The notes: generated from the sequence alone by a model not told the origin. A stretch of DNA of 64,000 bases from Minisyncoccia bacterium (GCA_046293175.1 JBKBPM010000001.1:363446-427445), one strand, 5' to 3'; numbered from the stretch's first letter, positions 22,397 to 45,300 are shown. A program made the numbers and translations.

Positions 22397-23347
22397 TTAG
22401 CCTAAACGTCGCGACCGGCGATTGTGAATAAAATAAAGGATAACTATCAAGAGCGCAAAGATTGGGAGAAGGAGTGAGAGCTTATGAGCAATAGAAAGTC
22501 CCATAAAACCATAACCGGCAAGCTGCAAGGTACCATACGGCAAAATACTAAGGTTTAACTCACCTTCCTGTTTGACGTCTTCTTCATTCTTGATGGAGTA
22601 CCGCACCATATAGCTCCCAGCCGGTAGACGGGTTGGCAGCGAAGCATTAATCTCTTCAATGGCGTATGGAGCAATTTTTTTAAGTCTACCAGTGTTATGT
22701 GTCTCTTCGAGGAGTACTGCCCCAGCCCGATCATAAATACGAAACTCAACATCAGACGGTGCGACATCGACATTACCGGTGTTTTCAATCAACATTGCAA
22801 AATTAATTTTTCCGGGGAAGTAGAGCCATCCCACTTTCTTACCTTCATTGAGATCATTTACTGAAATCTTACGAACACGGAAATCTTTAATCACTTTATC
22901 AATCACAGAAAGATCAATATCTACTTGAGCACCAAGCGAAATACTTACCACACCCTCAGCTACTTGATCATCGGCGGAGAGAGTTCGAATACGAATCTTA
23001 CCGGTATAGTCTCCAAAATCAGCATCTGCTGGAACTTTGATGCGTACCGTCATTGGTACCTTCTGCTGACCACGTGGCAGCGGAATAGATTGTCCTTCTA
23101 CGATTTCAATCCAGTCTTGAATCTCCGGTGCATCAATAGTGACTTCGGCTTTGAGGTTATCGCTTGGGTTACCTCGTACCAAGAGGATTTGTTGTTCGTA
23201 AGTTGAGTTTCGAGTGAGACTGGTATTGCGAACATACGGTGGAGTAATACCAAAACTAGCATGACTTAAAGCTGGCCAAAAGACTAGGATTGCGACCACG
23301 CACAAAACAAAAGAACGAAACAAAAACGTTGGCAAAATTACCTTCAT
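22397..23347 (-). CDS. CscA-like (DUF916/DUF3324-like) cell-surface protein with C-terminal TM anchor
   Basis: ORF 22397..23425 (-). ATG verified at 23347 (MKVILPTFLFRSFVLCVVAILVFWPALSHA). About 270-aa ectodomain, a C-terminal TM (LLLPIFALLIVILYFIH) and the tail NRRSRRLG. It lies immediately downstream of 23440..25317. Confidence 0.6.
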   Translation of the reverse strand: MKVILPTFLFRSFVLCVVAILVFWPALSHASFGITPPYVRNTSLTRNSTYEQQILLVRGNPSDNLKAEVTIDAPEIQDWIEIVEGQSIPLPRGQQKVPMTVRIKVPADADFGDYTGKIRIRTLSADDQVAEGVVSISLGAQVDIDLSVIDKVIKDFRVRKISVNDLNEGKKVGWLYFPGKINFAMLIENTGNVDVAPSDVEFRIYDRAGAVLLEETHNTGRLKKIAPYAIEEINASLPTRLPAGSYMVRYSIKNEEDVKQEGELNLSILPYGTLQLAGYGFMGLSIAHKLSLLLPIFALLIVILYFIHNRRSRRLG

Positions 23348-23439
23348 GCGATACAGACTATTATCGAAAATATCTGACAAAAAAGCAATAACCACTGTTA
23401 GGATAACAGTGGTTATTGAAGTCAATTATGGTCTGTTAT

Positions 23440-25317
23440 TTACCAAGCAGATGGTGTTGAGATAGCACCAGTGAATGTGTTCTGACCGGTATACGATCCT
23501 GCGAGTGTAATCGTACCTGGTACTGCAATACCCCAGTAGGTTGTTCCAGAAGTTGGAGTTGAGGTACTCGTTGGCTTTGGAATCTGAATTTGGAGCAAAG
23601 CCGGCGAGGTAGTGGCAGGAAGGGGTGATCCCGATGCGTAGGCAACTGCCGAGGTTGCATAGCGCTGCTGGTTTTGCGGGATAGTTGAGGTTGCAGAGAC
23701 GGGACAAAGACTACTGTTACTAAATGTTGTACACATAGACTCTCCACCGAGCAGCTGGTTGAGGCCAGTGTTACCAAGTACTCGCAGTGACGATGATGAA
23801 GTCAAGTTCGGCATGTTGGTACCTGGTTCGAGCTGATCGTACGCAATGGTACTCGTGAGAAGGTCAATCGCCACCAGACTAAGTAGCTCTACTGGGCTAG
23901 TGGTGGTAGCCATGGTACCCGTAGCAAAGTCATCGTCGACGCCTGCCACACCAGCACTCCAGGCTTGGGTATCAAATGGTGTACCAGAAACTGTTGGGTC
24001 GGCAATAAACCAAAGTGGGAAACTACATGAGTAGTTAATCGTGTCATCAGTAGCACCTGTACACGAAGTAGATGAAGCGGTACATGAGAGGTTCCAGACC
24101 GACGACGAGACACCACTTGGGTAACAGTTGTTGGGGTTGTAGCTACCGGCGGTACCGTTACAGGTAGTGGTACCGATAGAGCTGCGGAAGATAGATACAA
24201 CCGAGCCAATAATTTCATCAGCAGAACCGCCACCAACTGCATCACAACTATTGGCATCTGCAACCACAAAGTCAAGGGTAAAACCTGATGTTTGCGCCCC
24301 TGGAACGGTCAGTGCCATATCAAGACCACCATTAAGAGAGATGGTACTTCCTGAAATAGTTGGAGCAACGTTATTGACTGCAAAGGTGACATTTGTTCCT
24401 TGTGCTCCACCTACTGCCTCATGGCCATGTTCGTCATAAAGGTACCCAAAAGCATTATAGTTCGTGTCTTGGAGAATACTTGCCATTACCCGACTAGTTG
24501 TCGCATTAGCATAAGCGAGTGATATTGATGAAGACGCAACGGTGTCACCAGAGGCACAACTGTTTGTGGTAGTACTATAGGATGCACTGCCGCACACAAC
24601 AAGATAGAGAACATCTTCTGTGTCAACAACGTCTGGGTCAGTTGATGTGGATCGAAATAGCAGTGTACCGCCTGGGTCTACCGGTCCATCATTACTGAAG
24701 CCAGAAAATATTGGTCGACGGTTAACGTTAAATGGAGAAGAGTTAGTAGCGTTTGTTCCTTGTGAAAAAGTTGTACTACAACGTGGATTTACAGGATCAT
24801 CATCACATACCCAAGCATACCACTCGTTTGACTCAGAAAATAGACCTACTTCGTCAGTGGTGGTCGCGGCGCGAGCCTCTGTACCACTTGGAGTTCCTGT
24901 AGAGACAGCCCATCGGGTACCGGCACTACAAACTGGAGGTCGGGTACCAAGCGTTGAGGTTGATTGTTGTGCTGTTGGAGTCGCACTGGTACTACAAATA
25001 ATGAGGAAGTACGGTGCACCGTTAGCGTCTGTTGCTGTACCTACCCATGCTATCTGATCACCAGAGTTCGTCGGCGAAGTTGATGAGGAGCTTATCAACT
25101 CACGTGCTTCTTGACCGGCCACCCACGTTGGTGGGGTGTTTAGTACCGTTAGAGTGGTCGTCGCGGTGCTGGTCGCTTCAGCCTTTTCTAGTTCAGTTTT
25201 ACCAATGTTAAGAATAAATATAAAGGTAAAAATGAGCAGTCCTGATAACGCTGATAATACAGTGATCTTTCCTGCGGTCTCTACATACCGCGGAAGGTTA
25301 TTTTTGTTGTACAACAT
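23440..25317 (-). CDS. surface protein (625 aa) with Cys-rich C-terminal domain ending YWGIAVP, homologous to the C-termini of both giant proteins
   Basis: Signal anchor (ITVLSALSGLLIFTFIFIL). The C-terminal roughly 250 aa (SSIGTTTCNGTAGSYNPNNCYPSG...IPQNQQRYATS...TYWGIAVPGTITLAGSYTG...) align block-by-block with residues about 7200-7450 of the 7450-aa protein. Confidence 0.7.
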   Translation of the reverse strand: MLYNKNNLPRYVETAGKITVLSALSGLLIFTFIFILNIGKTELEKAEATSTATTTLTVLNTPPTWVAGQEARELISSSSTSPTNSGDQIAWVGTATDANGAPYFLIICSTSATPTAQQSTSTLGTRPPVCSAGTRWAVSTGTPSGTEARAATTTDEVGLFSESNEWYAWVCDDDPVNPRCSTTFSQGTNATNSSPFNVNRRPIFSGFSNDGPVDPGGTLLFRSTSTDPDVVDTEDVLYLVVCGSASYSTTTNSCASGDTVASSSISLAYANATTSRVMASILQDTNYNAFGYLYDEHGHEAVGGAQGTNVTFAVNNVAPTISGSTISLNGGLDMALTVPGAQTSGFTLDFVVADANSCDAVGGGSADEIIGSVVSIFRSSIGTTTCNGTAGSYNPNNCYPSGVSSSVWNLSCTASSTSCTGATDDTINYSCSFPLWFIADPTVSGTPFDTQAWSAGVAGVDDDFATGTMATTTSPVELLSLVAIDLLTSTIAYDQLEPGTNMPNLTSSSSLRVLGNTGLNQLLGGESMCTTFSNSSLCPVSATSTIPQNQQRYATSAVAYASGSPLPATTSPALLQIQIPKPTSTSTPTSGTTYWGIAVPGTITLAGSYTGQNTFTGAISTPSAW

Positions 25318-25576: not shown

Positions 25577-26785
25577 TCATTCATATCTGATGGCATCAAG
25601 TGGGTTGAGTGATGAAGCGCGGCGAGCTGGAAAAATACCAGTTAGGTATCCCACAGCTGCCGAAAAAAGCGCAATAAATACCAAAAAGCCAATTGGGAAT
25701 GAGAAGAGTTTTACAGCTTGACCACCAAATTGACCAGCAACAATATTAAGAAATAGATTAATAGTGACACCCAAGCCCACCCCCATCACAATTCCACTAA
25801 TACCACCAAGGAAGCCTACCACCACTGATTCAGATACGAAGAGGTATTTTACATCATTAGGTGATGCACCAATGGTGCGCATAATACCAATCTCCTTGGT
25901 ACGCTCAAGGAGTGTCACCGTCATGGTATTAAACATACCAATCGCGGACACAACCAAAGCAATACCACCAAAAGTGGCAAGGACAATCTGAATGCCTTGA
26001 AAGATCTTTGACGCTTGCTCTACAGTTTTTGAGAGCGCTGTTACACGGTACCCGGCCTCAATGAGCTTATTCTCTACTACCGGGAGGTTTTCATTCGTAT
26101 CAACACGCACCTGAATACGTTCAAACTCTTCAATGCCTACATAATTACGGAGTTCTGGTAACATCATCATGGCATTAAGGACACCCTCCTCTTTGGTGAT
26201 ACCACGGACGGTAAACTCTTTATTAATTACCACTTCGGTATTATTGTTCGTACCATCGTTTGCGGGAATCAAAATACGAAATGACACCTTCTCCCCCACA
26301 AAACTCGCTGGGTCTTCGACCCCGAAGAGCTTGAGGACTGCTGGTGAAATCATCACTGAGTTGGTGTCACCGGCATCAGCATCTGTGAATACTGTTCCTT
26401 CGGTAGCAGATACACCAGCATAGCGCAGATACGGTGGCTCCACGCCTTGAATAAAGACGTTACCGGTCAGTCCTTTGTAGGTCACGAGGGCGGGAAAGCG
26501 AGCCAAAGGTGCCGCATCAAGTACTTCAGGCATTTTTTCAAACTCAGCTACGGTGTCGGCGGTCAATTTAAGATTTTGAGCACCGGTGGCTGACACACCA
26601 AGAGACAACAGCGTCTCACCAAACACAATTTGTTCCAAGATGATTTGTTGGAGACCAAAGCCAAGACCCACGAGGATTACCACCGCTCCAGTCCCCACCC
26701 CCATACCCAAAATCGTCAACCAGGTACGGAGAGGGTTCGTTTTGAACATACGCGTAGAAAGCTGCGCTAGATCCTGCACTCGCAT
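25577..26785 (-). CDS. ABC transporter permease, FtsX/MacB-type (periplasmic-domain-containing)
   Basis: ORF 25577..26869 (-). ATG verified at 26785 (MRVQDLAQLSTRMFKTNPLRTWLTILGMGVG). N-terminal TM, large extracytoplasmic domain, then a C-terminal FtsX-like four-helix bundle (IGIMRTIGASPNDVKYLFVSESVVVGFLGGISG...). Confidence 0.85.
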   Translation of the reverse strand: MRVQDLAQLSTRMFKTNPLRTWLTILGMGVGTGAVVILVGLGFGLQQIILEQIVFGETLLSLGVSATGAQNLKLTADTVAEFEKMPEVLDAAPLARFPALVTYKGLTGNVFIQGVEPPYLRYAGVSATEGTVFTDADAGDTNSVMISPAVLKLFGVEDPASFVGEKVSFRILIPANDGTNNNTEVVINKEFTVRGITKEEGVLNAMMMLPELRNYVGIEEFERIQVRVDTNENLPVVENKLIEAGYRVTALSKTVEQASKIFQGIQIVLATFGGIALVVSAIGMFNTMTVTLLERTKEIGIMRTIGASPNDVKYLFVSESVVVGFLGGISGIVMGVGLGVTINLFLNIVAGQFGGQAVKLFSFPIGFLVFIALFSAAVGYLTGIFPARRASSLNPLDAIRYE

Positions 26786-26885
26786 AGTACATCCATTATG
26801 ACACAACTCGTTACATGCATTGGGCAGATAACCCCACCTATTAAAGGTAAACTTTGTACTAGAGCACACTAGTTGATTTAAGATT

Positions 26886-27207: not shown

Positions 27208-28530
27208 TCAGCTTTTGTACGAGACATCAACCCCCTGCGCAATCAGCTTCTCAAAATAGCGCGTCATATCATCAGCCTCACTTTCTGAGAGAGCTAGACC
27301 TTTACTTTTCACACCCTCCATAAGACGAGCGTTGAAGTCTTTCTCTTCTATCACTCCCGTCACACGATCGGCTACCAATTCAACTAGATTTGCATCTTGG
27401 TCTTTACTGAGTTTCATGCGATAGACTTCCAGGAGGTGGTCACGAAGACGTTCAGCTAATTTGTGTTGACTGAAAAATACGCCAGCGTTGTCCTTTTTGG
27501 CGCGGAAACGACGAATGTCATCTGATTGTTCAATTAGCTTTTCACTGCGTTTGGCCATATCCTTGGCCACGTTTTCAGGAATCTCTACTCCACCACGTTC
27601 AAGTGGTAAAACAAGAGCTTTGATAAATGCATCACGGTCAATTTTACCTTTGATAAAAAAGGCTACAGCCCGCTCAAGACGCTGAAGTTGATCAAACGTA
27701 TAGTCCTGAGTCAGGTAGTTTACGAGACTTTTTACACGGAGAGTTTCCACCGAGTCATACGGGAAGAGACGGGCCAGCTGTTCGAGTTCAGTTACAATCG
27801 TCTCACCTTCTCGTACTGGTTTGATTTGTTTTCGCTGTGGGTTAACCACCTCACGAACAATTAAGCCATCTTTGAGATAGTACACCCGATGGGCGTAGGA
27901 GAGGTGGGCCGCGTTGTGGGATACCATAATAATTGTTCGACGATCAAATGTGTTAATTTCGTCAATCTTGTCCATCACTTGCTGTGTTGAAATTGAGTCG
28001 AGGTTACCAGTTGGTTCATCAGCAAGGAGAATTTTTGGGTCATTCACCATACTTCTGGCGACCGATACACGCTGCTGCTGACCCCCCGAAAGCATCGAAG
28101 GGATCTTATGAGAAACGTGACCCACTCCAAAGCGTTCAAGGAGCGATTGGGCACGTCGATTACGCGTCTGCTTGTCTGCATTACAGAAAATCATTGGCAA
28201 GGCGACGTTGTCGAGCACCGAAAGAGAACCAATCAAGTTGAAGGACTGGAAGATAATACCCATCACATAACGTTGAAAGTACACACGTTCCGAGGGTGGA
28301 TAGGAGTAGATATCGTCACCGCGAATGAGGAGTGTCCCATCACCGGGCGGGAGTGAACCTTGAATCGAATACATCAAGGTCGACTTACCAGAACCAGAAG
28401 CACCGAAGAGAATAATGTACTCGCCTTCATAGATATCCGTGTTCACGTTCTGGAGCGCACGAAATTCATTGGACTTGCCCTTATTATAAATAATCGACAA
28501 GTCACGGCACACAATGAGTGGTTTCGCCAT
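27208..28530 (-). CDS. ABC transporter ATP-binding protein (MacB/LolD-like) with an unusual ~215-aa C-terminal extension
   Basis: Walker A GASGSGKST, Q-loop, signature LSGGQQQRVSVAR, Walker B ILLADEPTGNLD and H-loop VSHN lie in residues about 1-225. Residues about 226-440 (IKPVREGETIVTELEQLARLF...LIAQGVDVSYKS) are helical, charged, and have no recognisable family. Confidence 0.9.
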   Translation of the reverse strand: MAKPLIVCRDLSIIYNKGKSNEFRALQNVNTDIYEGEYIILFGASGSGKSTLMYSIQGSLPPGDGTLLIRGDDIYSYPPSERVYFQRYVMGIIFQSFNLIGSLSVLDNVALPMIFCNADKQTRNRRAQSLLERFGVGHVSHKIPSMLSGGQQQRVSVARSMVNDPKILLADEPTGNLDSISTQQVMDKIDEINTFDRRTIIMVSHNAAHLSYAHRVYYLKDGLIVREVVNPQRKQIKPVREGETIVTELEQLARLFPYDSVETLRVKSLVNYLTQDYTFDQLQRLERAVAFFIKGKIDRDAFIKALVLPLERGGVEIPENVAKDMAKRSEKLIEQSDDIRRFRAKKDNAGVFFSQHKLAERLRDHLLEVYRMKLSKDQDANLVELVADRVTGVIEEKDFNARLMEGVKSKGLALSESEADDMTRYFEKLIAQGVDVSYKS

Positions 28531-28559
28531 ACGTTTCTCTATTATGACATATCAGTACA

Positions 28560-30371: not shown

Positions 30372-33300
30372 CTACGGTGACACCGGAGTAAAGACGTTGA
30401 TACCAGCGTGAGGTGCACTATTGACCCCAAACGGAACCTCAATACCCCAATAGATATTTGTGGTAACCGCTGGTGATGGTACCGTTGGCTTGGCAAGGTT
30501 AACATCTAGTGTCACCGGTGTTGATGATGACAAGAGTGAACAAACCGAACAGCCAGCGTACGTGAAGGTACTGGTGGCAAATTTTTGCTGATTTGCTGGA
30601 ATAATTGAGCTGCTACCGTCACTGAGGTCTGTTCCTTCGACTTCGATGTCAAAGGCGACGTTACCAGTGTTTGCAATGGTGGTAGTTGGGTTGTACGAAC
30701 CAGTGTTGTCCTGTGGTGCAAGTGATCCGTAATTGATACCAGAGTCAACGCTTAGGGCGCGCACGGTGTAAAGCTCAACACCAGCAGGTGGTGTGGCCAT
30801 ATCATATCCACCACTCGTATCACTCACCTCAAGGTACGCCAACCAAGTGTCACCGTTATCGTCGGTTGCTTCAGCGTGGAAGAAGATGTCGGCATAACAC
30901 TCAAAGGTACAGGTGTTGCCACTACAATTGGTAAATGAACACTTATTACCAATTGTCGAAACATAACAGTTGTTGTTGTTTGGCGTACAACTTGGACCAA
31001 CGCTACTTCGATAGATGGTACTTGTTCCATTTACCAAGTCAGCCACCCCATTAAAGTCAGTCACCGTACCAGTCGCATAGACTCGAGTAGTAGTACCTGG
31101 TAAGAGAGAGATATCAAACCCGTTGTTAAGTGCCACCGTACCGAAAGTTGGATCAAATTGGAGTCCAAGCTCAGCGACTTCGCCATAGAAATCAATTGGT
31201 GTTGCATCATTAACCACACGGAAACAGTAATTGTCGGTAGCGTTGAGGGTTGGGGTGATGACGTACTCAAGTTCGGTATAGTTATCGGCCGGCACCGTCA
31301 GTGCGCTCGACATATTTGATGGACTTTCAACTACCATACCTGGTGTAAACTGACCATTAATAGTCGTCAGTAAGTCAGTGGTTGGTGCCCCATCAGTAAC
31401 CTGAGTTGAAGTCTGCATACAGATTGGTGAAGAGCCACAGGAAGCTTGATTTGGTACTGCCACATAACTGCCGCTTGATACCGCTTCGCAACTCGGTGAA
31501 GTGCCTTTTGCTGCATATTGGAGTCGGTACGTTTGTCCAGTAACCGTCAATCCAGAATTTTCGATACCGATACGGAGACGACGTGTCACACCAGGGAGCC
31601 CACTGCCCAGAGCATTTTCTGCAGAAAGCCAGGTGGCTCCGCCATAGGTTTGTTTGGCACCAAATGTAATTCCTGGATTGATTGGACCGCGATCACTGAC
31701 ATGATAACTATCCCAGGCACCATTTTGCACCCAGAAGGTGAAGCCCATGCCACCGCTGGTGTACGAACTATCGGTAGCTGATGTGGTGGCAACGAGCGTA
31801 CCTGAAGGGTTATAAAGGTACACATCAATACGGTTGTTGGTTTGCCAATCGATTTCCACTTGGTACCAGCCTGTTGTGTAGGTCACCGTGGTAGAAGCCA
31901 AACGAGTACCAGAGATATCGTTGTCAGTCACATTCTTTGAGAGTGAAAGACGATCGGTACCAAAGAGCTCAAGACAGACCGCGTAGTTGTTGTTGGCAGT
32001 ACCTGGTGTCTGTACCCCAAAGAGCGCACAACCTTCATCAGCCGCGCCACCAGATATGTCAACGTACTGTCGATACCGGATAATCTGTCCTTGCGCGGTG
32101 AGGTTACCGGTACGGAAGATACCATCAGTCGTTCGACCTGATTTGTTTTGGGCTTCAAGGGCATAAGCACCACCATAGACTGGTGTTGTATCAGTTTGGA
32201 AGAGGCTTGTATCACCACTGTATTCAGTAATATTATTATCTTCAAAGTCATCACTGAAACTAAAAGTATTGGCAGCCGAACTTGAACTGGTTGAACTCGC
32301 ATTACCAAAGTACATAAAGAGATTAGTGTACGCATTTGGAGCTAGACTTGGTACTTCTACCCACACCACTGCTTCGGTACTGGCGACATACCGATCCACC
32401 CAGAAATCAAGTGGGGTAAGACCATCGCTACTGGTGAATCGGAGATCATCGAAGTCGGACTGCATCGCACTATCATACGGCACGGTGACGCGTACAGTTG
32501 TCGTTGCAAAGGTTGTTGCCGTAGTGTTTTCGACACGTACTCGCTCACGGTAAGTCCAAGCAAAGTTATACCACTCAGAATTTGGTGCCCCTTCTCCCCC
32601 ATCATCGGCTCGCCAACGAGAACTGGTTTGTGAGGTCAAGAGACAACCACTGTCATCAAAGCGAATCGCTCCACAGAGGCCACCAATGTCACTGTCAAAG
32701 GCTTCCCCGCCAATATTGCCGTAGTTACCACTAAAGCGCCACGCATTGGTCGTACTTCCCACCAAGGCTACGTTTGTACCGGTCCAACTATTACCAGCAT
32801 TAAAGCCAACGGCGGTAAAGATCTTTGAAGCGTTCGCATTTAATGCAGTGTCAGTAAGACTAATTAACGTACCACCATTTACCGCGAGATTGTAGTACGC
32901 ATTACTGAGATTGGTGATAGTGGGCGCGTTACTGAAGGAGAGACCACTACTATTAAGCGCATCAAAGCGGTAGTACTGGGCGTTAAATGTTCCGCCAGTA
33001 ACAAGGAATGCGTGGGTACCAGTACTGATAGCCCCAATGGTAGTACTTGCGCTCGCAGCACCGAGGATAGCGAGACTGCCGCTTTGTACCGTGGTGGTAC
33101 TATTTTGTGCCATGCGGACAGTCACCGCACGCTGACTCGGTCCGACCAGTGCAGCACCATCAAAGTCCGTACTGTATGACCAGTATTCACTGGTGGTGGC
33201 AACCGTAAAGTCGCCGTAGATATTAAGTGTACCATCAACAGCTCCATGATCCTGTGAGTAGAGTGAAGCTCCGGTACCAAGCGTCGTAGTAGCCACCGTA

Positions 33301-36300
33301 CTATTCCACAACCGAAGATCAGCCGAACTAATCGCCAAGGTAGCGTAATCATCTCCTCCAGCAGACTTCGTATTAATTGTGTACGGAGCACTATTCGTGA
33401 GACTGATGATGGTATTAATCCAAGTGGTAGCGCCACCACCAACCAAGTTCGTGAATACGCCACCAATGCTCAGTGTGGTACCAGCTTCCTTTGTAAACGA
33501 CGACGCGGTGGTCAACGTGACATTATTGGTAGTTGTTGCATTACCCTGCCAAGTCCAACCACCTGAAGCACTGGCAAACTGGACGTTATAGAACGGACTG
33601 GTACTCGCATTAATGGTCTTGCCACTAGCGGTTGCATTAAAGAGGACAGTACCAGAGGCATGATCAAACGTACCACCGGTAACAAGGAACGAACCGCCAA
33701 CTGAAAGTGTATTGGTAGCTGAGATGAATGCGCCAGCACTGATGACCACATCATCACGGAAGGTGGCCGAAGCATCGGTGATAGTGATGGTGCCAACCCC
33801 CGTCTTTCGGAGAGCAAATAAATCTGATCCACGGGTGGTGATTGAAGCGTCAGCGGCACTCGTCATATAGAGATCAGCAGTGTTATGCGTCACGGTACCA
33901 CTGGCGTTGGTGAATGATCCACCGACAGCCAGTGCACCACTTGGGAGCGTGACCGTACCGGTATTGCTGATGACGAAGCTACCAGTTGTAGTTGCATTTG
34001 TATCGGTCATACTCCAACTACCAGCAGCACCCGTAAAATACAAAGCTGGTACTGTTGCGTCATCAAAGCGTACGATGTTGCCGGTTGATGAACTCACGAA
34101 GGCCAATCCAGTGCCGGGCATTGAGAAGCTACCGCCAGTAGCGTTAAACGAAGCCCCTATGGTGGTAGTACCACTACCAAAGGTTACCGCACCAGCGCTT
34201 TGGGTAAATGATCGGGTTGTTGTAAAGGTAGCATCAGTCACTGTCCAGGAACCACTTCCAGTAAAGGCTACGTTGTAGAATGGGCCACCGTTTACATCGA
34301 TTGTACGACCCGCTCCGGTGGTGGTGAACGTAGTGGTTGACTGACCGGCGATGAAGATCGCTCCCGGACCAAAGATGAAACTACCGCCAATACTATGGGT
34401 TTCAGTACCCAAGGCGCGCCACGTAGCATTCGCTTGCGCTTCGAGTGTACCGTCTTGCGCTCCGCCACCACCCCCACCACTTAAGGTGACATTACCGTTT
34501 GGTTCAAAGGTTTTACCAGACCAAATGAGGAGCTTTTGGTCTGCTGGCAACGTCAAGGTATCACTACCTGCATCAACTGCGGTAAAGAGAATATCACCAT
34601 CATCTGAACTGTCCCAGACTGCCATATCAGCAATTGAGAGTGGACTGGTATTTTCGTGTCGAACAATGACACGATTTTCATACAGATGCATGTTACTGAT
34701 CGATGAAATCGGATCAGCACTGACTGTTACTGCTTTCCGAATATTGTTGTCAATATATACCGTAAGGGTGTCAGCCGGACTAAAAGCTACGTTTGAAATA
34801 CTGTACGCACCAGTACCTGGATCACATGAGGCAGTATACGTAGTCAGTCCAGCAACGCGCAGGAGGATATTTTGAGTTACTCCGTCACAGACCGGAGAAA
34901 CGGTTACCCCTTCATCACTGTAGACGTTACCCGAAACGGTGATCAGAGCAGCTGAATCGTCCCATACAATATAACCTGGATCACCAGCTGGATCATTATC
35001 ATAAGCTTCTCCATCAATTGAACCAATGTGGTTTGTGAAGCGCCATGAACTGACAGCAGTACCGGTAGCAGTCACGTTTGTAGCCGCACTTACACCTGAT
35101 GAAGTCGCGAAGCTGTTATTGGTGAAGTTCTTGGCTGGGTTGTTGTTGAGAACGGTCGCGCCAACGGTTATACCAGTACCACTGTTAGCTGCTACCTCGA
35201 TATCAACCCGTGAGAAATCTGTAACGGTTGGTATACCAGTAAAGACAATACCGGTTGAAGTAGCATTACGAATGGTGGCGTAGTTCCAGTTGGTTGTTCC
35301 ACTGCCGCCAATCGTCACATTGTAGGTACCAGACCCTTGATTGTTGATCGAGGTTGAAGCATTGGCGGCACCAACAACAGAGAGACTACCACCGAGGAGA
35401 TTGTAGCTGGCTCCTGAGGCAAAAGCTACAGTCACTACTCGTTCACTACCAGTCAGTGAAGCACCATCAAAATCGGTGGCATAACTCCAGTAATCACTGG
35501 CAGTGGTTTCGGTAAAGGTACCGTAAATATGAAGGAGGCCATTGGTATTATTGTGATCTTGTGAGTAGATACCACCAAGCGCATTGTAGGTGGTAGCACT
35601 ACTATTCCAGAGGCGGATACGAGTATCACTTGCTACCGAAAGAGTACTGTAGGTATCAGCCGTAGTCTTTTGGTTGACTGCAATATTACCACCACCATAG
35701 AAGTAGAGGGTGCCTGGGAAATCGGTAGCAGCGCCTCCGAGCTGATTTTCAAAGACACCTGCAACCGCTAACGTGGTCCCTGTGGCAACTCTAAAGAGAC
35801 TATGGTTTTGGAGGATAAAGCTTTGGGTTGACGTCGCTGACTCGGTCACCGTAAAGGATCCAGTACCATTGATACGAGTGCGAGCAAGTGGTGAGTTACC
35901 CATCGCAATAGTATGTGTACCGCTACCGGTAAAGGCGACCACGCCACCATTGGCAAGTACTGTACCATTAGCATCAATGCTGCCAGCGATAGTGGTAGTC
36001 GCCGTATCACTAAGACTGAGGGTGGACGCAGTTGCCACAAAGACATCGCCAGACACCGTCAGTACTGGATCTGATTGATTGGTCGTAAAGGTTGAAGACG
36101 CGGTACCGTTACCAATCGTCAGGTTGCGGTTTACCAAGATACCGACACCACTGGTCGTGAAGGTTGAACTACCAACAGTTGTACCAATCGCTAAGTCGTA
36201 GTAGGTCGTACCAAGTACGGTGGCATTTGCACCACTATAGGTAACGAGACCTGTACCTGATCGATAGGTTCCGGCTACTGAAAAGACAGTTCCACTACCG

Positions 36301-39300
36301 GTTAGATTAATAGCGGTTGCACCAACATCATACACGTGAGCTGCACTGACCGTCAGTCGGCCACTAACCGTAGTCGTAGCAGCTGAGGCTGGAGTTGTGG
36401 TACCGGCCATCGAACCATTACCGAGCACGAGATTTGCAAAGGTCCATGGTGTAGTGCCGCCGAGAGTATTAGTACGAGCAATGGTGGTAGTCCCAGCTCC
36501 AAGTGACAACGTACCGTTACCGGTGAGCTGACCATTGAGGAGTGAGATGTTGTTGGTGCCCGTCACCGTACCAGCAGTAATAGTCATGTCACCAGTAAGA
36601 CTCAGTGGTGCGGTGATGTTCCAGGCTCCGCCAACGCCAGTAAACGATAGGTTGTGGAAGTTTTGGGTAGCAGCGGCCGTAATACTCTTACCGGTAGTTG
36701 TTGCCGTAAAGACAAACGTCGAAGAGGCAGCGGTGATAGTGGCATTGGTACCAACAACGAGTCGTCCTGAGAGACTATGGGTATCAGTGCCAGCGGCGAC
36801 GAACTGTGAAGAAGTGGCGAGGGTGAGGCTGCCTTCAAAGGCACTACTTGACGCGTTACCGGCAAGCGTCACAGGGCCACCAGGGGTAAAGGTGGTACTC
36901 GCCCACACAAAGAGACCGTTGTTTGCAAATACAGTGAGCGAGGTCGACGGTGTAGTGGTCGCAGTAAAGCGCAAGTCAGTATCAGACGCGGTGTTAAAGA
37001 GGGTCAAATCAGCAATTGAAAGCGGCACAGCTCCTTCATGGCGAGTAATGAGCTGGTAAGCATACACATCAAAGTTGGTGATATCAGTAGTTGGTGTCTT
37101 CGTGACAGCTGCACCTGTAACACCACCATTGGTGTTGAGGTAGACGGTAATCTTCGGGTCACCAATAAAGGCGACGTTACTGAAACTGTATGCACCAGTT
37201 GCCGCATTACATGATGTTTGTGCAGTATAACTGCCGCTGTTCACAACCACCCGAACATTTGGTGTTACTCCATCACAAACTGGTGCACCCAGTGCGGCTG
37301 AACCATCGCTGCGTAATACCCGACCAGAAACAGTAATCAAGTATGAACTATCGTCAAAGCGAATGGCACCGGGGTTGGTATCCCCTCCATCAAACGCTTC
37401 ACCGTAAAGATTGCCAGTTCCCTCCTTAAACCAAACGAAGCTGGTTGATGTACCGGTAAAGGTGACGTTACTGCCTGTACCAGCTGTGGTCGTCGCAAAG
37501 GCAACCCGCAAGAACTGCTTGGCTGGGTTGGTGTTCACGGTGGTGCCATCAATGCGAAGACCTGAGGTGCCAGGCGTCACCTCGACATACCCATCATCAA
37601 ATTGTGACAAGGTCGTTGAACCTAGGAGTCCAAAGCCAGCGGGACCGGTACTAGCAACACTGAAGTTACGAGCGGTGACAATTGAGTTGGTGGCATTAAG
37701 TGAGAATGAGCCAGTGAGTGCAGCGACGGTGGTGGTAGCTGAAGTGGTACCGGTAAGGTTAAGCGAAGCTGCGGTGAAGCCAATACTTGAACCACTTGCC
37801 ACCCGCACGTCAACCTGCCGAGGACTACCAAGTACCGTACCATCAAAGTCAGTGGCGTACGCCCAATGTTCAGTGCCGGTACTGCGAATGTAATTACCAT
37901 AGATATTGAGGTCACCATCAACTCCAGCATGATCTTGTGAGTAAATTGAACCAGTACCATTGGTGGTATACGTTGCAGCTGATGAATTCCACATCGCCAC
38001 ATCGGTGTCGCCGTCAACGAAGAGTGTGCCGTAGACATCTCCCGAGAAAGTCTTTGCGTGCATACTATGATCCCCACCAATGAGACGGAGGATTGAACCA
38101 GTCCAAGTCGTTGAGGTGCCGGACATGGTTTGCGAGAATGTACCTGAAGCAGTCAGCGAGATACCACTGTTTAGGGTGAACTGGGTGGCGGTTATAAGAT
38201 TAATGGCCACGGTTGATGTTGCCGCTTCAGTGATCGTGAAGTCTCCCCCCGCACTATTAAATTCAAGTGTCGCAAAGTTTGAATTACCAGCAGCAATAGT
38301 TTCTGCTCCAGCGATTGAATTAAAGCGAACAGTACCGCTGGCATTGAAGAAGGTAGCGTTGTTATCAAATGATCCTCCTACACTCAAGACTCCTGTTGGG
38401 AAGGTTGTATCTCCTCCAGTATCAAGCACAAAGTTACCTAAGATAGTGGCATTGGTATCTGTAAAGGTACGAGCAAATCGTGCTTGACTACTACTTGTTG
38501 CGTAGAACGTACTCGCACTGATCTGATTGTTATATTCAGTGGTCAACCAGCCGTTTGTACGAGCCACATTAGACAGACGAATTTCATCAATGATGCCCGA
38601 GAAGAAGCGACCACCAGCATCATCTTGCCCAAACTTGAGATCGTTGATGGTTGAAGAGGCATGGGTAGTACTATTACTACTACTAGCTGAACCAGAAGTA
38701 GCAAAACGATAGATAGTAGCGGTGGTTGGATTGACCACCAGGGCAGCCATAAACCACTGATTTTGAAGATAGGTTGGTGCCCCATTCCAGCCATAGGTGG
38801 CAACCGTATCGTTCCAGTGGTACCCAAGGTTTCCAGCCGTACCGTTAATACCAAGACCGGTGGTTACCGCACCACGAGAGAAAACCACACCATCGTATGC
38901 ACTCTGTGCTCCGTTTGGACGCATCCACACCGACCAGGTAGATGTCGCCATCGAAGCCGCAAAAGTAGTCTGAATAAACTCGTTCGTACCATCAATACTT
39001 TGACCTCGACCCACCTGTGCAGTCACTCGGTCACCCACCTCCATATTATTACTCGTACCGGTGGTACTACCCGTACTACCAACATACTGTGGGGCAGAGG
39101 CAGTTGGGCTTTCATCCAAGTGATAAACCGCGAGATATCCATTGGTCCAAACATTATTGCGACCAAATGGATCTGTTACAGCATAAGCACTAGCAGCACT
39201 GTTGCCGTAGTAAATATAGAAAGTGGTGTTCGTAACATTACTAATAGTTGGCGCTTTGAAGTGTAACTCGCCACTTAGTGAACCAGTGTTTATGCTCACA

Positions 39301-42300
39301 AGTTCATATGGTACTTCGGTTACACCATCACTCGTGGTGACGCGAATATCACTACCGTCACTTTTCACTCCTGCAAAGAAGGCACTACCAAGCGTAGCCA
39401 AATCAACATAGACTGGGAAATCCGTCACTGTTTCCGCGACCTGACTGGCACTAATAGTGATGGCCATGCGACTCGTCCAACTGTTGTTATACCAAGAACC
39501 AACCCCGCTACGAGTACGTAGATGGTTGAAACTTGAACCATTGGTGCTGATTTGATTGGCATCCTGCACCAACAAAATGACTTCACCATTGTTGTGGGCA
39601 AAGGCCCCAGAACCAGTTACAGCAAAGTCACCGCCTACAGTTAACGTGCCGCTTGGCATAGTGACGGTACCGCTTTGAATACGATGTGCACGTGTGGTAG
39701 TGGCGGCACTTTCAGAGTAAGTCCACGAGCCTGCACCAGCAAAGGTAAGATCGTAGAAGGCATTAAGGAAATTCGTAGCCCTTTGGGTAATTGTGCGTCC
39801 AGCTACACTACTGGTCATACGAACCTCACCATTGTTATGTGCAAACTGTCCGCCCGTATTGAGGAAAGATCCCGCAATCGTCGTAGTACCAGTTGGCAGC
39901 GTGACCGTACCGGTTGCGATGGTGAGTGTACCATTAAGGACTAGTGTACTTGTGCTAAATGACCAGTTACCACCAGCACCGGTAAATGACAGGTTGTTAA
40001 AGGCAGAGGTACCACGTGCAATCACACCGGTACTGGTACCAACAAAGGTCACCGTACCACTTTGCGGAACAAAGAGGTTGTTGTTTGTCCAGGCCCGGAC
40101 GACATTTATGTTAAAGCCAGAACCAGAGGCATTAAGCGTATCGTCTGCTCCAATAGTTATCGACTCGCTGCCGACATTACCAGAGAGCGTGATGGTTTTG
40201 GCTGTACCATCAATGACAACATTACCGACATTAGTACTTGAAGCGGCACTTTTTGCATCACCCCAAAGACTACTGCCAGCACCATCAAAGGTGGTTGTAC
40301 CAAGCCCACTAAAAGTACCATTGGCGCCAAGACTTAAGTTACCGCCGATGTTTATACTCGATGTACCACGAGCCAAGGTTCCAAAGTTCATCGTCACATT
40401 ACCAGAAGCAATCAGTGGTTTTGTGAGACTAAACGTAGCATTACCACTACCTTCACCAAAGGTAACATTATGGAAGAAGAGTGAACTTGAGGCATTAACT
40501 GGCGTTTGGGTCGAAGTAGTAGCCGTAAAGATAATGGTTGAAAGACCAGTCGTAAATGTACCTTGGTTATTCCAGAGATTACTAATACGGAAGGTACTGG
40601 TGGCTGGGGCAAAGGTACCATTATTTTGGAAATTAATGACACTCGTGTCAGCCCCTGGTGCGTAGGTTGAACCAGAAAGTACTCGCAGACGAGCATCACC
40701 ACAAGTTGATTCAGCACAGAGAGTGATAGCGTTACCACCATCAGCACTAAAGAAGATGTCTTCGTTGGCACTATTGGCATAGAGCGCAAGCTGAGCATTG
40801 GTGATTGTGGTGTTGTCGTTTGAACCAATCGTCAAGTGACGCTTACTGAGCACCATACCCGTAATATCGCCCGAACCATCATAGACGGTGGTGCCCACTG
40901 CTTCGTCGGTACCACTTGCATTTTGCATAAACACCGTGATGACATCACCAGCCACAGCTGACACATTTGGAATCGACCAAGAACCAGCCGCTGAGACTGT
41001 TGACCAGGTAATAACCACCCGTCCAGGATTACCATTGCCTCCATTGGTTGAAGTCGCACTGGTACCACCACTACCAGCTCCACCACCATAATCACTGTCG
41101 GTGTTATTACCAGGTAGACCAGGAGAGGTGGAAGAACCACTGACCGTTGATGTAGCAGTTACACCACTGGTTGTAATATACGATGAACCACCGCCGCCGC
41201 CGGCACTCGCTTGGTAGATACCTGCCCCACTAGCACCGCCGCCGCCGCCGTAATAACCGGCGCCACCACCAGCACCACCAGCAGCCAGGGTTGATGAGGC
41301 ACCGGCACCACCAGCCCCACCACCATGTATGCCACCAGCACCACCGGCGCCACCACCAGCACCAGAACTACCACTACCGCCGTTATAGGCCGAACCCACG
41401 GTTGCATTCCCGCCACCAATGGCACCACCCGTTGACTGTGTACCACCAGTTCCAGCTGTACTGCCAGTCACACTGACTCCATCACCACCAACGAGACCAC
41501 CTCCAACCCCACCAGCACCCGCCAGTGTTCCGGTGACGCTATGCGGTTTGAGCGCAAAGGTAAAGTAGCGACCAACATCAGCACCAACTGATGCTTGTGT
41601 CATGGTAGGTGCACCAAGCTGTCCAGGTGCCCCAACTGGATTATTATCGTAACAAAGGAAAACAGAGTTGTCGGTACCGTTAGCGTTAGCTGAATAAAAG
41701 TTTGCATCAGCATTCGTTGGGATGTCACAAGAACCTCCGCCAGGACCCCAGGTGTTGTTATCCATCGAGCCACCAACATGAACTACCATGGCATCTGCCA
41801 CCGTGGCATTGAGATCAGTTCCCGTAAAGACAGTATTGGCTACCGTGACGGCAGTGTTTGTACCAACCACATCATACGGATTACCAGTAGTAGTCACGCC
41901 ACGATAGGCCCAAATACGACCGGTGTATGACTCAGTGGCTGGTCCACCAAAAGTTGGATTACCAGGCACAGCACCAGTGCGGCGATAGTACCAGACAGAC
42001 AAACGACCTTCACCAGCCGATCCTGCTTGAGAAGAAAATTCTGTCCAACCGGTGCAGTTAGCGGTACATGTATGTGCGGTGTTTGTTCGTGAATGTAATA
42101 CGGCAATATAAACGTCATCAACTGCTGTACCAGCCGGAATGGTTGGAGTACAACTAGCACCGCTAACCGCACAAGCTGTACCAACCCCAACATAGCTTAT
42201 GCCACCAGCCACTGACCCACCACCGCCACCAGCACCAGCCACAAAGAGTGGTGTTGAGGCACGCATCACGGAGGTAGCGCCACCTCCCCCACCACCACCC

Positions 42301-45300
42301 GGTGGTGCACCAGTTACTCCTCCGCCGCCGCCACCACCGACGTGAATGGTGAGATTTTCACCAGGAATAGTCGTGAGTGTACCCCCAACAAATCCACCCC
42401 CACCACCAGTTGCTCCAGCATATTGTGTACCGCCACCACCAGCACCACCACCTGCACCCCAAGCCTTGACGGTGACATTAGTAACACCAGGTGGTACCGT
42501 GAAAGTACTGGTACCTGCAGTACTATAGACCATTTGTTGGGTGGTGGTACCAACTGCAATTTGAGCTGTTTTACCTGACTGTAAGACACCGTTTACCGCA
42601 ATCGCAACGGTACCAGTAGCCACCAAGGTTGACTGATCATATTCAAAAGCACTACCAGATACCGTAAGCCCTTCAGACCATTCAACTGACCAATCTTGTA
42701 TTGATGGACAATTTCCACTATCACAAAGGAGTTCCGCATCAAGCTTGAGCACTGCATAGATGTTTTTATCAAGGTTTGAAAGATCAATTGGTGAGTTAGT
42801 GAATCCTGCCGCATTACCAGGCAACGCTGAATCAGGAATCAACACAAAGTTACCTGGGGTTGTTTCATAGTAAACCCGATACAACACATCACTCAGGCCT
42901 GGTGTCGTATCAGTAAAGCGTACTCGCTCCCAACGTGGACTGACCCCGTCTTCAAAATTAATAGCAGTTGAGCGTATTGCACCCGAGGTAAAGCTTGGGT
43001 AGATTTGAGCAGCAATTGTTAGGGATCCATCAAAAGGCAACGTCGTAATTGATGGACTTGTACTGAAGTTCTCCCGCGCGGTCCATGTCACCCCATCCCA
43101 GCGACTTGTGTCATAGCGATCAGGGTTTGAACCATCATCAAACGCGAGCATGTGAATGTTACTATCACCACCACGTACGGTCTGGATACGCCAACTATTA
43201 TTGACTGTATCAAGACTAAACTCTCCAGAAGAAGTACCAGTAAGTACCGAATACGTTTGATAGCGGGCTGCTACTGTATCTGAATACGCGACAATCACTT
43301 CGCCTTCAGCTGTGCCAGGAGTAGTTTGAAATTCACAATCAACAGGCAAACCACGGTTATCATTACCGGTGGTGGTCATTTCAGTGAAAGTACCCCAACC
43401 ACTACCTGTCCAACGGAGTACACCAATGTCAGTATCAGCGTCCATGTAACAGAGAATCATTCGGTCACTGCCCTCGTCACGTTTAAGACTTCCCCAGGTC
43501 ATGACGTTGCCGAGCGCTACTGTGCTGGTGGCTGACCAAGTTGAACCATTCCACGTCTTCCATGGCATATTGACAGTACCATTTGGAAGCGCCAAAACCG
43601 CTTGATCTCCTGATTCTTCATATTCTATTACAATTGCTTCGTTAGAGTTAGCACTAACATCACCAAAACGATTCGAATTGCCCCAACTACTACCATTCCA
43701 CACGAGCGCCTCGTAATCAGGTGTAGATGCATTATTGTGTCGGAAGACTACAATCATTTCGTTTGAAGTAGGGTCACTGGCCAGCTTTACCCACTCACAG
43801 TCAGCGGCTTTAACTAAATCAATACTCGAAGTAGCTGACCAGCTTGTTCCATTCCAGATAGCGTAAACAGCATCATTGCCGGTACATGCTACGGCCATCA
43901 ATCGACCAGAGACAGTCTCGTACCCAATATCAAAACGACGTTTTGTTGATTCAGTGGCATTGTCAACAATTTCAAATATATTACCCCACGACTCAGTGAG
44001 AGCGTCATAGATTTGGATATTGATGTCAAGGTCAGTACCAAGAGTACCAAGGGCATATTCAGGTCGAGTTGTCGCAGCTTTGAGTTGTGTCCAGCGGATC
44101 TGGGCACCAACGGTCTCAGCGGACTGAGCGGAACTCCAAGTAGAGCCATTCCAGGTGCGGAACTGCGGTGCCTGTGCGGTACCAATACCATAAGCAGTCA
44201 TTGCGCCACTAATAATTGATGTTACTTGCGCACCGCCAGCCACAGTTTCAATATCAACATTGTCGTTAGTGGCAAACTGATCACCGGTCGTTTGATACCA
44301 GACTGATACATTAGTGGCTGTGTCAACCGTAAAGCTAAACGGTGTTGCGTAATTTGACCAACTATTGTTGCCACCGGGGTCACGCGCCCGTGCACGCCAC
44401 CAGTAGGTCACTCCATTTGTGAGTGGCGTCTGAGTTTGATAACGAACCGTGTTACCTGACGTGTATGGATTAGTATCAGCTGGGGTGGTGACATTTGTGA
44501 AACCAGCATCCACGCCAGAGAGGAAGGTAGATGGACTAGCAAAGTCTGCAGTACTCGAAATTTGCACTTCGTACTGCAAATCGTCGTTTTGTGGATCGGT
44601 TGTGGTAAAGGTGAAGGCTGGTGTCACAGTGGCCGTCTTTGCATTGTCAAAGAGTGAGATAAGCGTTGGTGGCTCAATCTTTTGACTCCAGGTCACCGTC
44701 ATATCTAAAAGCCGTGGCAAGGTAGAGTTACCAGAGAAGACCGAGGTAATACGAAGCACGTTATATGTCCTGGTATCAAGGTTTGCAATTGATATTGGTG
44801 ACGAAGTAAAGCCGCTACTGTTACCAGGCAAGTCAGTATCAGGCACCAGTTCAAATGTATTGGCAGAAACTTCATACTCAACGTAGTGTCGAATGGTACC
44901 AGAGGTGACATTTTGGTTGAAGTTTATACTACCCCACGCATTACCAATTTCTCGGTTATCATAATCAATTTCGGTAGTCGTTGTAGTCGCAGCAGTAAAG
45001 CCTGTGTTAATACCAGTATCATTGGTGGTGGTACTCGTGATCGCATCATTAAGGCTGTTGGTATTAAATTGATCACCGGTTGTTTGGTACCAGGTTGTGA
45101 TGACTGTGGCACTATTAATTGTAAAGCTTTTAGCTTCAGACCAATTACCGTAGGTATTTGAACCAAAATCATCTTTGGCACGTACTCGCCACCAGTAGGT
45201 TACTCCATCAGTCAAACCAGTGTTTGGAATAAATTGAATTGTCTGGCCAGACGAATACTGACTACGTTCTGAAGGTGAAGCTAAGTTGGTGAATTGTGAA

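What the first reader, a model, noticed from the sequence alone, without database searches (positions are those of the whole stretch)
30372..31124. Shared Cys-rich C-terminal domain ending Y-W-G-I-x-V-P on three otherwise different proteins (candidate sorting/anchoring module)
The last ~250 aa of the 7450-aa protein, the 625-aa protein (23440..24200) and the 2053-aa protein (6980..7600) align block-by-block. Each has a Cys-rich core (CTPNNNNCY...CSFTNCSGNTCTFEC against CNGTAGSYNPNNCY...CTASSTSCTGA), an IP[AQ]NQQ block, and a terminal Y-W-G-I-[EA]-V-P.

A conserved C-terminal module on the largest exported proteins, together with dedicated downstream TM-anchored CscA-like partners, suggests a non-covalent wall or partner-binding domain analogous to, but distinct from, WxL or LPXTG sorting.
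Basis: seen in the sequence. Interest (0 to 1): 0.75.

Follow-up and report, generated by a model that had tools for sequence, protein, structure and literature searches.

The report
Unannotated C-terminal docking module, CPR surface proteins
Two of the three proteins (the 7450-aa giant and the 625-aa protein) end in the same unannotated ~260-residue two-part beta-sandwich module, which in many candidate-phyla-radiation bacteria sits beside a membrane-anchored chaperone-like protein, so it most likely docks or assembles giant adhesins on the cell surface; the third protein ends in a different, pilin-type domain.

Summary
The shared C-terminal module is real for the 7450-aa and 625-aa proteins: SEG-masked BLASTP gives 59 bits, E 7e-15, against a maximum of 23 bits in 300 shuffles. 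The 2053-aa protein does not have it. That protein ends ...VVYIAVPVY and carries the C-terminal domain of the window's two Pam-like pilins.

The module has no Pfam or NCBIfam match. AlphaFold2 models it as two beta-sandwiches (pLDDT 93.5). A profile finds 2079 cluster representatives. In 141 of the best 150 it ends within 12 residues of the C-terminus, on proteins of 174-7696 aa.

This repeats the logic of Firmicute WxL clusters and of the CPR Pam pilus, but with a new domain family. The most likely role is a chaperone-dependent docking or assembly domain, possibly by strand complementation. The mechanism is inferred, not shown.

Verdict: observation partly confirmed, interpretation partly supported, a new variant of a known kind.

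The parts
30372..31160 (-). C-terminal module of the 7450-aa protein (last 262 aa plus stop). Subdomain 1 (Cys-rich beta-sandwich) is about 30780-31160. Subdomain 2, about 30375-30779, contains IPANQQKFATS, YWGIEVP and the terminal strand HAGINVFTPVSP.
   Evidence: BLASTP to the 625-aa protein. Family alignment A1. AF2 model with pLDDT 93.5 and two beta domains. Profile hit at residues 7180-7449, E 6e-106 (this sequence was itself in the profile's alignment, so the score locates the module, not independent evidence).
23440..24381 (-). The same module at the C-terminus of the 625-aa protein (residues ~313-625), ending ...TTYWGIAVPGTITLAGSYTGQNTFTGAISTPSAW.
   Evidence: Profile hit at residues 313-621, E 3e-57 (this sequence was itself in the profile's alignment). 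Conserved in 17 orthologues.
25123..25167 (-). Nearly invariant segment TATTTLTVLNTPPTW at the predicted mature N-terminus of the 625-aa protein. It is an 'orphan' beta-strand-plus-linker motif and a candidate donor strand. This role is an inference.
   Evidence: Alignment of 18 orthologues, consensus atTt.tVLNTpP.w directly after the AxA-type signal-peptide site. Small module-only proteins of other lineages have the equivalent TSVTVGNAAP directly before the module.
22397..23320 (-). Partner gene immediately downstream of the 625-aa gene. It encodes a signal peptide, an invariant mature N-terminus FGITPPYV, two beta-sandwich domains and a C-terminal TM helix (WxLIP / PapD-like). The likely start is M36 of the listed ORF.
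30372..52724 (-). The 7450-aa 'large' module protein: an N-terminal hydrophobic segment that is probably a cleavable signal peptide, a repetitive passenger region, and the C-terminal module.
   Evidence: N-termini of full-length relatives. Relatives of 5000-7696 aa carry the same terminal module.
6980..7519 (-). C-terminal domain of the 2053-aa protein. This is NOT the module. It is a pilin-type C-terminal domain shared with the two Pam-like pilins.
   Evidence: BLASTP to the 408-aa pilin, E 1.6e-6 (it was itself a row of the pilin alignment, so its E 5e-55 profile match is not independent). Weak sub-threshold NF058581 CPR_Pam_pilin_C hit, 18.5 bits against a cutoff of 55.
19173..20327 (-). 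Pam-like pilin (384 aa as annotated in the MAG). It is context for the third protein, not part of the module system.
   Evidence: 100% identical to P0225 from a Ca. Paceibacteria MAG; 2036 homologues. NF058581 hit of 24.4 bits, below cutoff.

Best explanation
The shared ~260-aa C-terminal module is the docking or assembly domain of a CPR cell-surface system. The system has three parts:
1. A 'large' protein: a variable passenger of up to ~7,400 aa plus the module. Here this is the 7450-aa protein.
2. A 'small' protein: a signal peptide, a short conserved N-terminal strand and the module. Here this is the 625-aa protein, which carries a ~290-aa insert.
3. A membrane-anchored two-domain protein with a WxLIP / PapD-like chaperone fold. 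Here this is the 342-aa ORF at 22397..23425.

Proposed sequence of events. All three proteins are exported by Sec. The TM-anchored chaperone-like protein captures the module through beta-strand contacts that involve the module's conserved terminal strands. The giant protein is then held on the cell in one of two ways: directly by this partner, or through the small protein, whose orphan N-terminal strand would plug into the neighbouring module (donor-strand complementation, as in Pam and chaperone-usher pili, and as predicted for WxL-WxLIP).

Shown: the domain family, its terminal position, its fold class, the triad synteny and the partner's fold.
Inferred: physical binding, strand complementation, polymerisation and the adhesin role.
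For: 1. The module is a real, deeply conserved family that no library annotates. It has 2079 representatives at E<=1e-3 and 797 at E<=1e-30.
2. Positional constraint. 141 of the best 150 hits end within 12 residues of the protein's C-terminus. In six of the nine exceptions other domains are inserted inside the module while its last strands (YWG.xVP...GxYxGxxTFxA) still end the protein. This resembles chaperone-usher pilins, where the C-terminal strand and carboxylate engage the chaperone (established knowledge).
3. Triad synteny. The order large, small, TM-anchored partner appears in L034, L035, L036, L038, L039 and L040, loci chosen only through a module protein. It also appears in the orthologous operon, 32 CPR loci down to ~40% identity; the 625-like gene is seen in 21 of them and the partner in 18, the other contigs ending first.
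5. The mature large and small proteins show no other anchor: no C-terminal TM and N-termini that look like cleavable signal peptides.
6. A conserved orphan N-terminal strand sits directly before the module in small proteins and at the mature N-terminus of the 625-aa family.
7. The best Foldseek PDB hit of the module is the CfaE-CfaB tip-adhesin/pilin fusion (3f83, E 5e-5), and a chaperone-tip adhesin complex (6k73) is also listed.
8. Published parallels. WxL clusters consist of one WxLIP plus a small and a large WxL protein, with a predicted strand insertion (PMC10599100, PMC9772566). Pam pili have TM-anchored PapD-like chaperones, no usher and a tip subunit that lacks a donor strand (bioRxiv 10.64898/2026.03.03.709456).
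Against: - No sequence-level link connects the module to WxL or to the Pam pilin C-terminal domain. Pfam and NCBIfam give nothing. hhalign of subdomain 2 against the pilin C-terminal domain is colinear but not significant (P 0.018, probability 2.5%).
- The AF2 monomer model has seven strands in subdomain 2 and is very confident, so the fold may be self-complete rather than groove-bearing. I had no coordinates and no multimer prediction.
- Contig L033 has four module genes in a row and no partner within 12 kb, although the contig ends there.
- No experimental data exist for any member.
Confidence: 0.5

Rival explanations
1. Direct, non-covalent cell-wall (peptidoglycan or other envelope polymer) binding domain, as classically proposed for WxL. 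The module itself sticks to the wall, and the TM-anchored neighbour only stabilises it or has a separate function.
For: The architecture parallels WxL proteins: the domain is always C-terminal and is the sole domain in the small paralogue (PMC9772566). The proteins have no covalent or TM anchor. The module is Cys-rich and rich in conserved surface Asn, Thr and Ser, which is compatible with glycan binding.
Against: Fold searches show no similarity to any known wall-binding module. The strict requirement that the last strands end the protein, and the fixed adjacency to a PapD/WxLIP-like protein, are better explained by protein-protein strand pairing. CPR envelopes are poorly characterised.
Confidence: 0.17
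2. Distal ligand- or host-binding (lectin-like) head. The proteins would be anchored by uncleaved N-terminal TM segments, and the conserved C-terminal module would be the business end that contacts the host cell.
For: The N-terminal hydrophobic segments of the window's giant and 625-aa proteins have atypical cleavage regions. The module is a disulfide-rich extracellular beta-sandwich. Weak galectin-like sequence matches appear at E~1.
Against: The same module is kept almost unchanged on passengers of completely different composition and size, and as a stand-alone small protein. Host-binding heads usually vary while anchors stay constant. Most relatives have canonical AxA signal-peptide sites. 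The galectin matches are not significant. Synteny with a membrane-anchored chaperone-like protein is unexplained by this model.
Confidence: 0.13
3. C-terminal recognition domain for the ABC transporter encoded between the two module genes, serving export, release or processing of the giant protein.
For: An ABC ATPase (27208..28530) and a four-TM permease (25577..26869), together with an FN3 protein, lie between the giant gene and the 625-aa gene. They are present there in most of the 32 orthologous loci, 28 for the ATPase and 26 for the permease, the other contigs ending before those genes except L017.
Against: The ABC genes are absent from L017 and from all six diverse triad loci that keep the module and partner. 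The module proteins have N-terminal Sec-type signals. A 260-aa folded double domain is unlike known C-terminal secretion signals.
Confidence: 0.06
4. Merely a conserved structural 'cap' of a fibrillar protein family, inherited by descent, with no special sorting, anchoring or assembly role.
For: Fold searches return generic Ig-like domains. Many hits could be orthologues of a few giant genes.
Against: The module occurs on non-homologous passengers: Kelch, LamG/DUF2341, ice-binding-like and beta-propeller repeats. It also occurs alone in small proteins and in a fixed triad with a chaperone-like partner.
Confidence: 0.08

Closest known systems
WxL / Csc clusters of Lactobacillales and Listeria (small WxL protein + large WxL protein + WxLIP, i.e. 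DUF916-DUF3324-TM, CscA)
   Different: The module is not a WxL domain by sequence: there is no PF13731 hit and no pair of WxL motifs, only one invariant W-G-[ILV]. It is larger (~260 aa, two subdomains, up to 8 Cys). It is found in CPR rather than Firmicutes. No LPxTG protein is present; dockerin and cohesin-TM genes follow instead. Passengers reach 7,700 aa.
Pam pilus of CPR bacteria (PamA/PamB pilins, PamT tip, PamC/PamD TM-anchored chaperones, PamR anchor; bioRxiv 10.64898/2026.03.03.709456)
   Same: Both are found in CPR. Both have PapD/FimC-like chaperones with a C-terminal TM helix and no usher. Both have subunits whose C-terminal Ig-like domain is the assembly interface, and a tip subunit that needs only the acceptor domain. 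The window also encodes Pam-like pilins and a 2053-aa protein ending in the pilin-type C-terminal domain.
   Different: The module gives no hit to NF058581 CPR_Pam_pilin_C, and its hhalign comparison with the window's pilin C-terminal domain is not significant. The candidate donor strand is N-terminal, whereas in Pam it is an interdomain linker. The partner (o22397 family) is a distinct subfamily of the chaperone-like proteins. The Pam paper does not describe giant tip proteins.
Classical and alternate chaperone-usher pili (e.g. CFA/I CfaE tip adhesin + CfaB, Pap, Fim, Csu)
   Same: The system works like them on paper: a tip adhesin with a pilin-type C-terminal domain, a small subunit with an N-terminal strand, and a PapD-like chaperone. 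The subunit's C-terminal strand must be terminal. The top Foldseek hit of the module is the CfaE-CfaB fusion 3f83.
   Different: There is no outer membrane and no usher. The chaperone is membrane-anchored. No Pfam fimbrial families match. The structural match is weak (TM 0.43) and not clearly better than generic tandem Ig hits.

Membership tests
WxL domain (Pfam PF13731) | Significant match to the WxL profile | tested here: not met
   hmmscan against Pfam-A at E<=1 returned no family for the C-termini of the 7450-, 625- or 2053-aa proteins.
WxL domain (Pfam PF13731) | Two conserved Trp-x-Leu motifs on adjacent strands | tested here: not met
   The family alignment shows one invariant W-G-[ILV] (W238-G239) and one further invariant Trp (W106, W-x-A context). 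There is no second WxL motif.
WxL domain (Pfam PF13731) | Always the C-terminal domain of large proteins, and the sole domain of small secreted paralogues | tested here: met
   141 of 150 best profile hits end within 12 aa of the C-terminus. Small proteins of 304-317 aa consisting of signal peptide plus module occur in L033-L040.
WxL / Csc cluster | Cluster of at least one WxLIP (two Ig-like domains plus C-terminal TM) with a small and a large domain-bearing protein | tested here: met
WxL / Csc cluster | Peptidoglycan binding of the domain | not testable with these tools
   This needs biochemistry.
Pam pilus system (CPR) | Pilin C-terminal domain matching NCBIfam NF058581 CPR_Pam_pilin_C (cutoff 55 bits) | tested here: not met
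   The module gives no hit in the window proteins or in any of 36 family members. For comparison, the 2053-aa C-terminus scores 18.5 bits and the two pilin-like proteins score 24.4 and 19.5 bits. All are below cutoff, so even those are only Pam-like.
Pam pilus system (CPR) | PapD/FimC-like chaperones carrying a C-terminal TM helix, encoded next to the subunits, with no usher | tested here: met
Pam pilus system (CPR) | Incomplete Ig-like acceptor domain completed by a donor strand of the next subunit | not testable with these tools
   Only a monomer model without coordinates was available, and no multimer prediction could be run. The orphan N-terminal strand is suggestive only.
Pam pilus system (CPR) | Restricted to CPR / Patescibacteria | tested here: inconclusive
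   All 32 genome loci carry titles naming CPR groups or only 'bacterium' (Paceibacterota, Parcubacteria, Kaiserbacteria, Lloydbacteria, 'Saccharibacteria'). However, the scan used one close-relative peptide pattern, and the 2079 profile hits carry no taxonomy.
Known C-terminal sorting signals (LPXTG, PEP-CTERM and relatives, T9SS CTD) | Short motif plus hydrophobic tail, or a match to curated CTD models | tested here: not met
   There is no C-terminal hydrophobic segment and no NCBIfam or Pfam sorting-domain hit. The proteins end in a polar beta-strand.

The most novel reading that the evidence does not exclude
The module defines a third, undescribed chaperone-dependent, usher-less fibre system of monoderm CPR bacteria. 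Small module-only subunits would polymerise by N-terminal donor-strand complementation into a stalk. Giant adhesins of up to ~7,700 aa would be its tip subunits, and a membrane-anchored WxLIP/PapD-like protein would act as chaperone and base. On this reading, Firmicute WxL clusters, Pam pili and this system are branches of one ancient monoderm 'chaperone-pilin' superfamily.
Probability: 0.25. Interest if true: 0.8.

Novelty: new variant of a known kind. Interest (0 to 1): 0.6.

Why it matters
CPR bacteria are mostly uncultured epibionts, and how they attach to hosts is poorly understood. Their largest genes are annotated as 'hypothetical'.

A recognisable terminal module, with at least 2,000 sequence clusters and a fixed chaperone-like partner, would help in three ways:
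- It gives a handle for annotating these giant proteins as surface-displayed.
- It allows prediction of which small proteins and chaperones work with them.
- It allows binding and assembly experiments to be designed.

It also links two literatures that do not cite each other: Firmicute WxL/WxLIP clusters and the newly described CPR Pam pilus. This suggests that membrane-anchored PapD-like chaperones are a general monoderm solution for mounting large adhesins.

Tried and rejected
1. Three-way homology including the 2053-aa protein. Rejected: BLASTP E 7.2 and 0.19, and no profile hit.
2. Pfam and NCBIfam annotation of the module. Nothing was found, even when 36 members were scanned.
3. Sequence search of the PDB. 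Only noise at E~1, such as galectin-8 and odorant-binding protein. Pam pilin structures were not detectable.
5. The AFDB50 fold library was unavailable.
6. hhalign of the module against the window's pilin family. Not significant for the whole module (P 0.07) or for subdomain 2 against the pilin C-terminal domain (P 0.018, probability 2.5%).
8. ABC transporter as cognate partner. Rejected as a core component because it is absent from L017 and from six diverse loci.
9. Rfam scan of the window: no RNA families.
10. Literature search for a prior description of this domain or of CPR WxL-like clusters: none found in the held library.

Full report
**Setting.** All long ORFs of the window lie on the minus strand. 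The 408-aa ORF at 19173..20399 is 100% identical to a hypothetical protein of a Candidatus Paceibacteria MAG on a 676-kb contig. The window therefore comes from a CPR/Patescibacteria genome.

**Check of the observation.**
- The C-termini of the 7450-aa ORF (30372..52724) and the 625-aa ORF (23440..25317) align over 294 columns at 30% identity, E 7e-16.
- With SEG masking the score is 59.3 bits (E 7e-15). 300 shuffles of the 625-aa C-terminus never exceed 23.1 bits. The S/T-rich composition therefore does not explain the match.
They are invariant or nearly invariant in a 36-sequence family alignment.
- The third protein does not belong. The 2053-aa ORF ends ...TTEVVYIAVPVY and aligns with neither of the others (E 7.2 and 0.19). 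A profile of the module misses it.
- Its last ~180 residues are instead homologous to the C-terminal domain of the 408-aa and 373-aa pilin-like proteins of the window (BLASTP E 1.6e-6; it was itself a row of the pilin alignment, so its E 5e-55 profile match is not independent).
- Those three sequences give weak, sub-threshold hits to NCBIfam NF058581 'CPR_Pam_pilin_C' (18.5-24.4 bits against a cutoff of 55).

**What the module is.**
- It has no Pfam or NCBIfam match, either in the window proteins or in 36 relatives. It has no sequence relative in the PDB.
- AlphaFold2 with the family alignment gives a confident model (pLDDT 93.5) of two beta-sandwich subdomains. The first is Cys-rich (residues ~1-127 of the last 262). 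The second (~128-262) contains the IPANQQ block, the YWGIxVP strand and a final conserved strand.
- A profile search of 1.84 billion representatives finds 2079 proteins at E<=1e-3 and 797 at E<=1e-30.
- In 141 of the best 150, the match ends within 12 residues of the protein's C-terminus. These hosts range from 174 to 7696 aa, and 26 of them exceed 5000 aa.
- The nine exceptions are informative. In six, foreign domains are inserted inside the module while its last strands (YWG.xVP...GxYxGxxTFxA..D) still end the protein. In two, extra domains follow the module.
- The module is therefore not a short sorting signal. It is a folded domain whose terminal strands must stay terminal.

**Context.**
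- In 32 species-level CPR genomes the giant gene's C-terminus is followed by the same genes. The order is an FN3 protein, an ABC ATPase, an ABC permease, the 625-like protein, a 342-aa-like protein, a dockerin protein, a pilin, and cohesin-TM proteins. This holds down to ~40% identity.
- L017 lacks the FN3 and ABC genes but keeps giant, 625-like and 342-like genes in that order.
- I then fetched loci through diverse module proteins chosen only by the profile. L034, L035, L036, L038, L039 and L040 all show [large module protein], then [small 304-317-aa protein made of signal peptide, short conserved strand and module], then [signal peptide, two beta domains and a C-terminal TM helix]. The last protein matches the HMM of the 342-aa family at E 1e-41 to 1e-57. 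Dockerin and cohesin-TM genes often follow.
- Two further contigs (L033, L041) end too early to judge.
- The core unit is thus a triad. The window's 625-aa protein is the 'small' member with a ~290-aa insert.

**The partner.**
- The 342-aa ORF probably starts at M36, at 23320.
- It has an invariant mature N-terminus FG[IV][ST]PP[FY][VI], two beta-sandwich domains and a C-terminal TM helix.
- Its family is homologous to the three other chaperone-like proteins of the window: 58657..59760, 5981..6967 and 4375..6069 (hhalign probability 98.1%, E 8e-14).
- Those three lie next to the Pam-like pilin and the 2053-aa protein. They give weak Pfam WxLIP_PGBD (former DUF916) hits.

**Comparison with what is known.** Two published systems share this logic.
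- In Firmicute WxL/Csc clusters, a small protein that is only a WxL domain and a large protein with a C-terminal WxL domain are encoded with one WxLIP (DUF916-DUF3324-TM). AlphaFold predicts that a WxLIP strand inserts into WxL (PMC10599100, PMC9772566).
[quoted passage not shown] The PapD/FimC-like chaperones carry a C-terminal TM helix, there is no usher, and a tip subunit has only the acceptor domain (bioRxiv 10.64898/2026.03.03.709456).
- The present module fails the sequence tests for both families. It gives no WxL profile hit, lacks the double WxL motif and gives no NF058581 hit.
- Its hhalign comparison with the window's pilin C-terminal domain is colinear over ~125 columns but not significant (P 0.018, probability 2.5%; control pairings P 0.07-0.5).
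- I therefore do not file it as a WxL or Pam domain. I treat it as a new domain family used in the same kind of system.

**Mechanism (inferred).**
- The large and small proteins have N-terminal segments that look like cleavable signal peptides in most relatives. They have no other anchor, so something must hold them on the cell.
- Three facts point to the module being the surface through which the membrane-anchored chaperone-like partner binds them: the constant C-terminal module, its terminal-strand constraint, and its fixed adjacency to that partner.
- The small proteins carry a conserved orphan strand directly before the module (TSVTVGNAAP). The 625-aa family keeps the equivalent ATTTLTVLNTPPxW at its predicted mature N-terminus, 290 residues away from its module.
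- The same V-x-N-x-A-P-T motif precedes the module inside the 625-aa protein, directly after the end of the domain that comes before it.
- An orphan copy of this strand is what a donor strand would look like. A plausible chain is membrane, then partner, then small protein (possibly repeated), then giant protein.
- None of these contacts was tested. The monomer model has seven strands in subdomain 2 and may be self-complete.

**Rivals.** I considered four alternatives:
- direct wall binding;
- a distal host-binding head;
- a recognition domain for the neighbouring ABC transporter, which is disfavoured because the transporter is absent from L017 and from the six diverse loci;
- a mere structural cap.

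**Verdict.**
- The feature is a new variant of a known kind of system. Its mechanistic details remain open.

Noticed in passing
window 19173-20399, 59876-60997 (both minus strand): Two paralogous pilin-like proteins (54% identical) end ...YTATLTYVATPVF and ...YSTVLTYIATPTF. They give sub-threshold hits to NCBIfam CPR_Pam_pilin_C. The family is abundant (2036 homologues), and every source name seen among the listed hits is 'hypothetical protein'. They are probably divergent Pam-type pilins of Paceibacteria.
   Followed up: partly
window 6980-13141, 5981-6967, 4375-6069 (minus strand): The 2053-aa protein carries the pilin-type C-terminal domain and is followed by two TM-anchored chaperone-like genes. 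One of them has an extra C-terminal LytR_C domain (Pfam E 1.4e-8). It looks like a giant tip subunit of the Pam-like pilus. The two chaperone ORFs overlap by 89 nt as listed, so one start may be miscalled.
   Followed up: partly
window 52812-54365, 16319-18133, 18036-19166, 14876-15628, 55052-56968, 21285-22391: This is a cohesin-dockerin set. Three cohesin proteins have a C-terminal TM helix and a fourth (14876..15628) combines a cohesin-like region with a dockerin-like end. Two further secreted Ig-repeat proteins end in dockerin type I. One of these (55052..56968) begins with a pilin-like N-terminal domain (profile E 9e-11). Dockerin and cohesin-TM genes also follow the triad in L035, L038 and L039.
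   Followed up: partly
window 25577-30345 (minus strand): An FN3-repeat secreted protein (491 aa), an ABC ATPase with a long C-terminal extension (440 aa) and a four-TM permease with a large external loop lie between the giant gene and the 625-aa gene. They are present in most of the 32 orthologous loci (missing from L017; some contigs end first) and absent from more distant triad loci. Their role is unknown.
   Followed up: partly
P0152, P0160, P0196, P0166, P0206, P0212; L033:3196-7197 and 8294-10327: In some lineages the module is split by large inserted domains (DUF2341 + LamG, beta-propeller-like repeats, others), and the two halves still match the profile. L033 has four module genes in tandem. 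The module seems to serve as a scaffold that displays variable inserts.
   Followed up: partly
L036:837-2389 and L037 (same arrangement): Just upstream of a module triad lie a bAvd-like gene (PF22296) and an Lcl_C protein (PF07603). These families are typical of diversity-generating retroelements. A possible link between DGRs and these surface loci was not examined.
   Followed up: no
window 20400-21285: This stretch between the dockerin gene and the pilin gene is AT-richer (the 20001-22000 window has GC 0.42, against ~0.46 around it). It holds only short ORFs (121 and 61 aa) and has no Rfam match. It could be a promoter or regulatory region for the highly conserved pilin gene, or a small unannotated gene.
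   Followed up: no
window 22397-23425 and orthologues/analogues in L034-L040: In the analogous partners of L034-L040 and the orthologues aligned, the predicted mature N-terminus begins, right after the signal-peptidase site, with [AGS]FG[IV][ST]PP[FYW][VI]. AF2 gives this invariant stretch low confidence (pLDDT below 50 for residues 15-31), as expected for a segment that becomes ordered only in a complex.
   Followed up: partly
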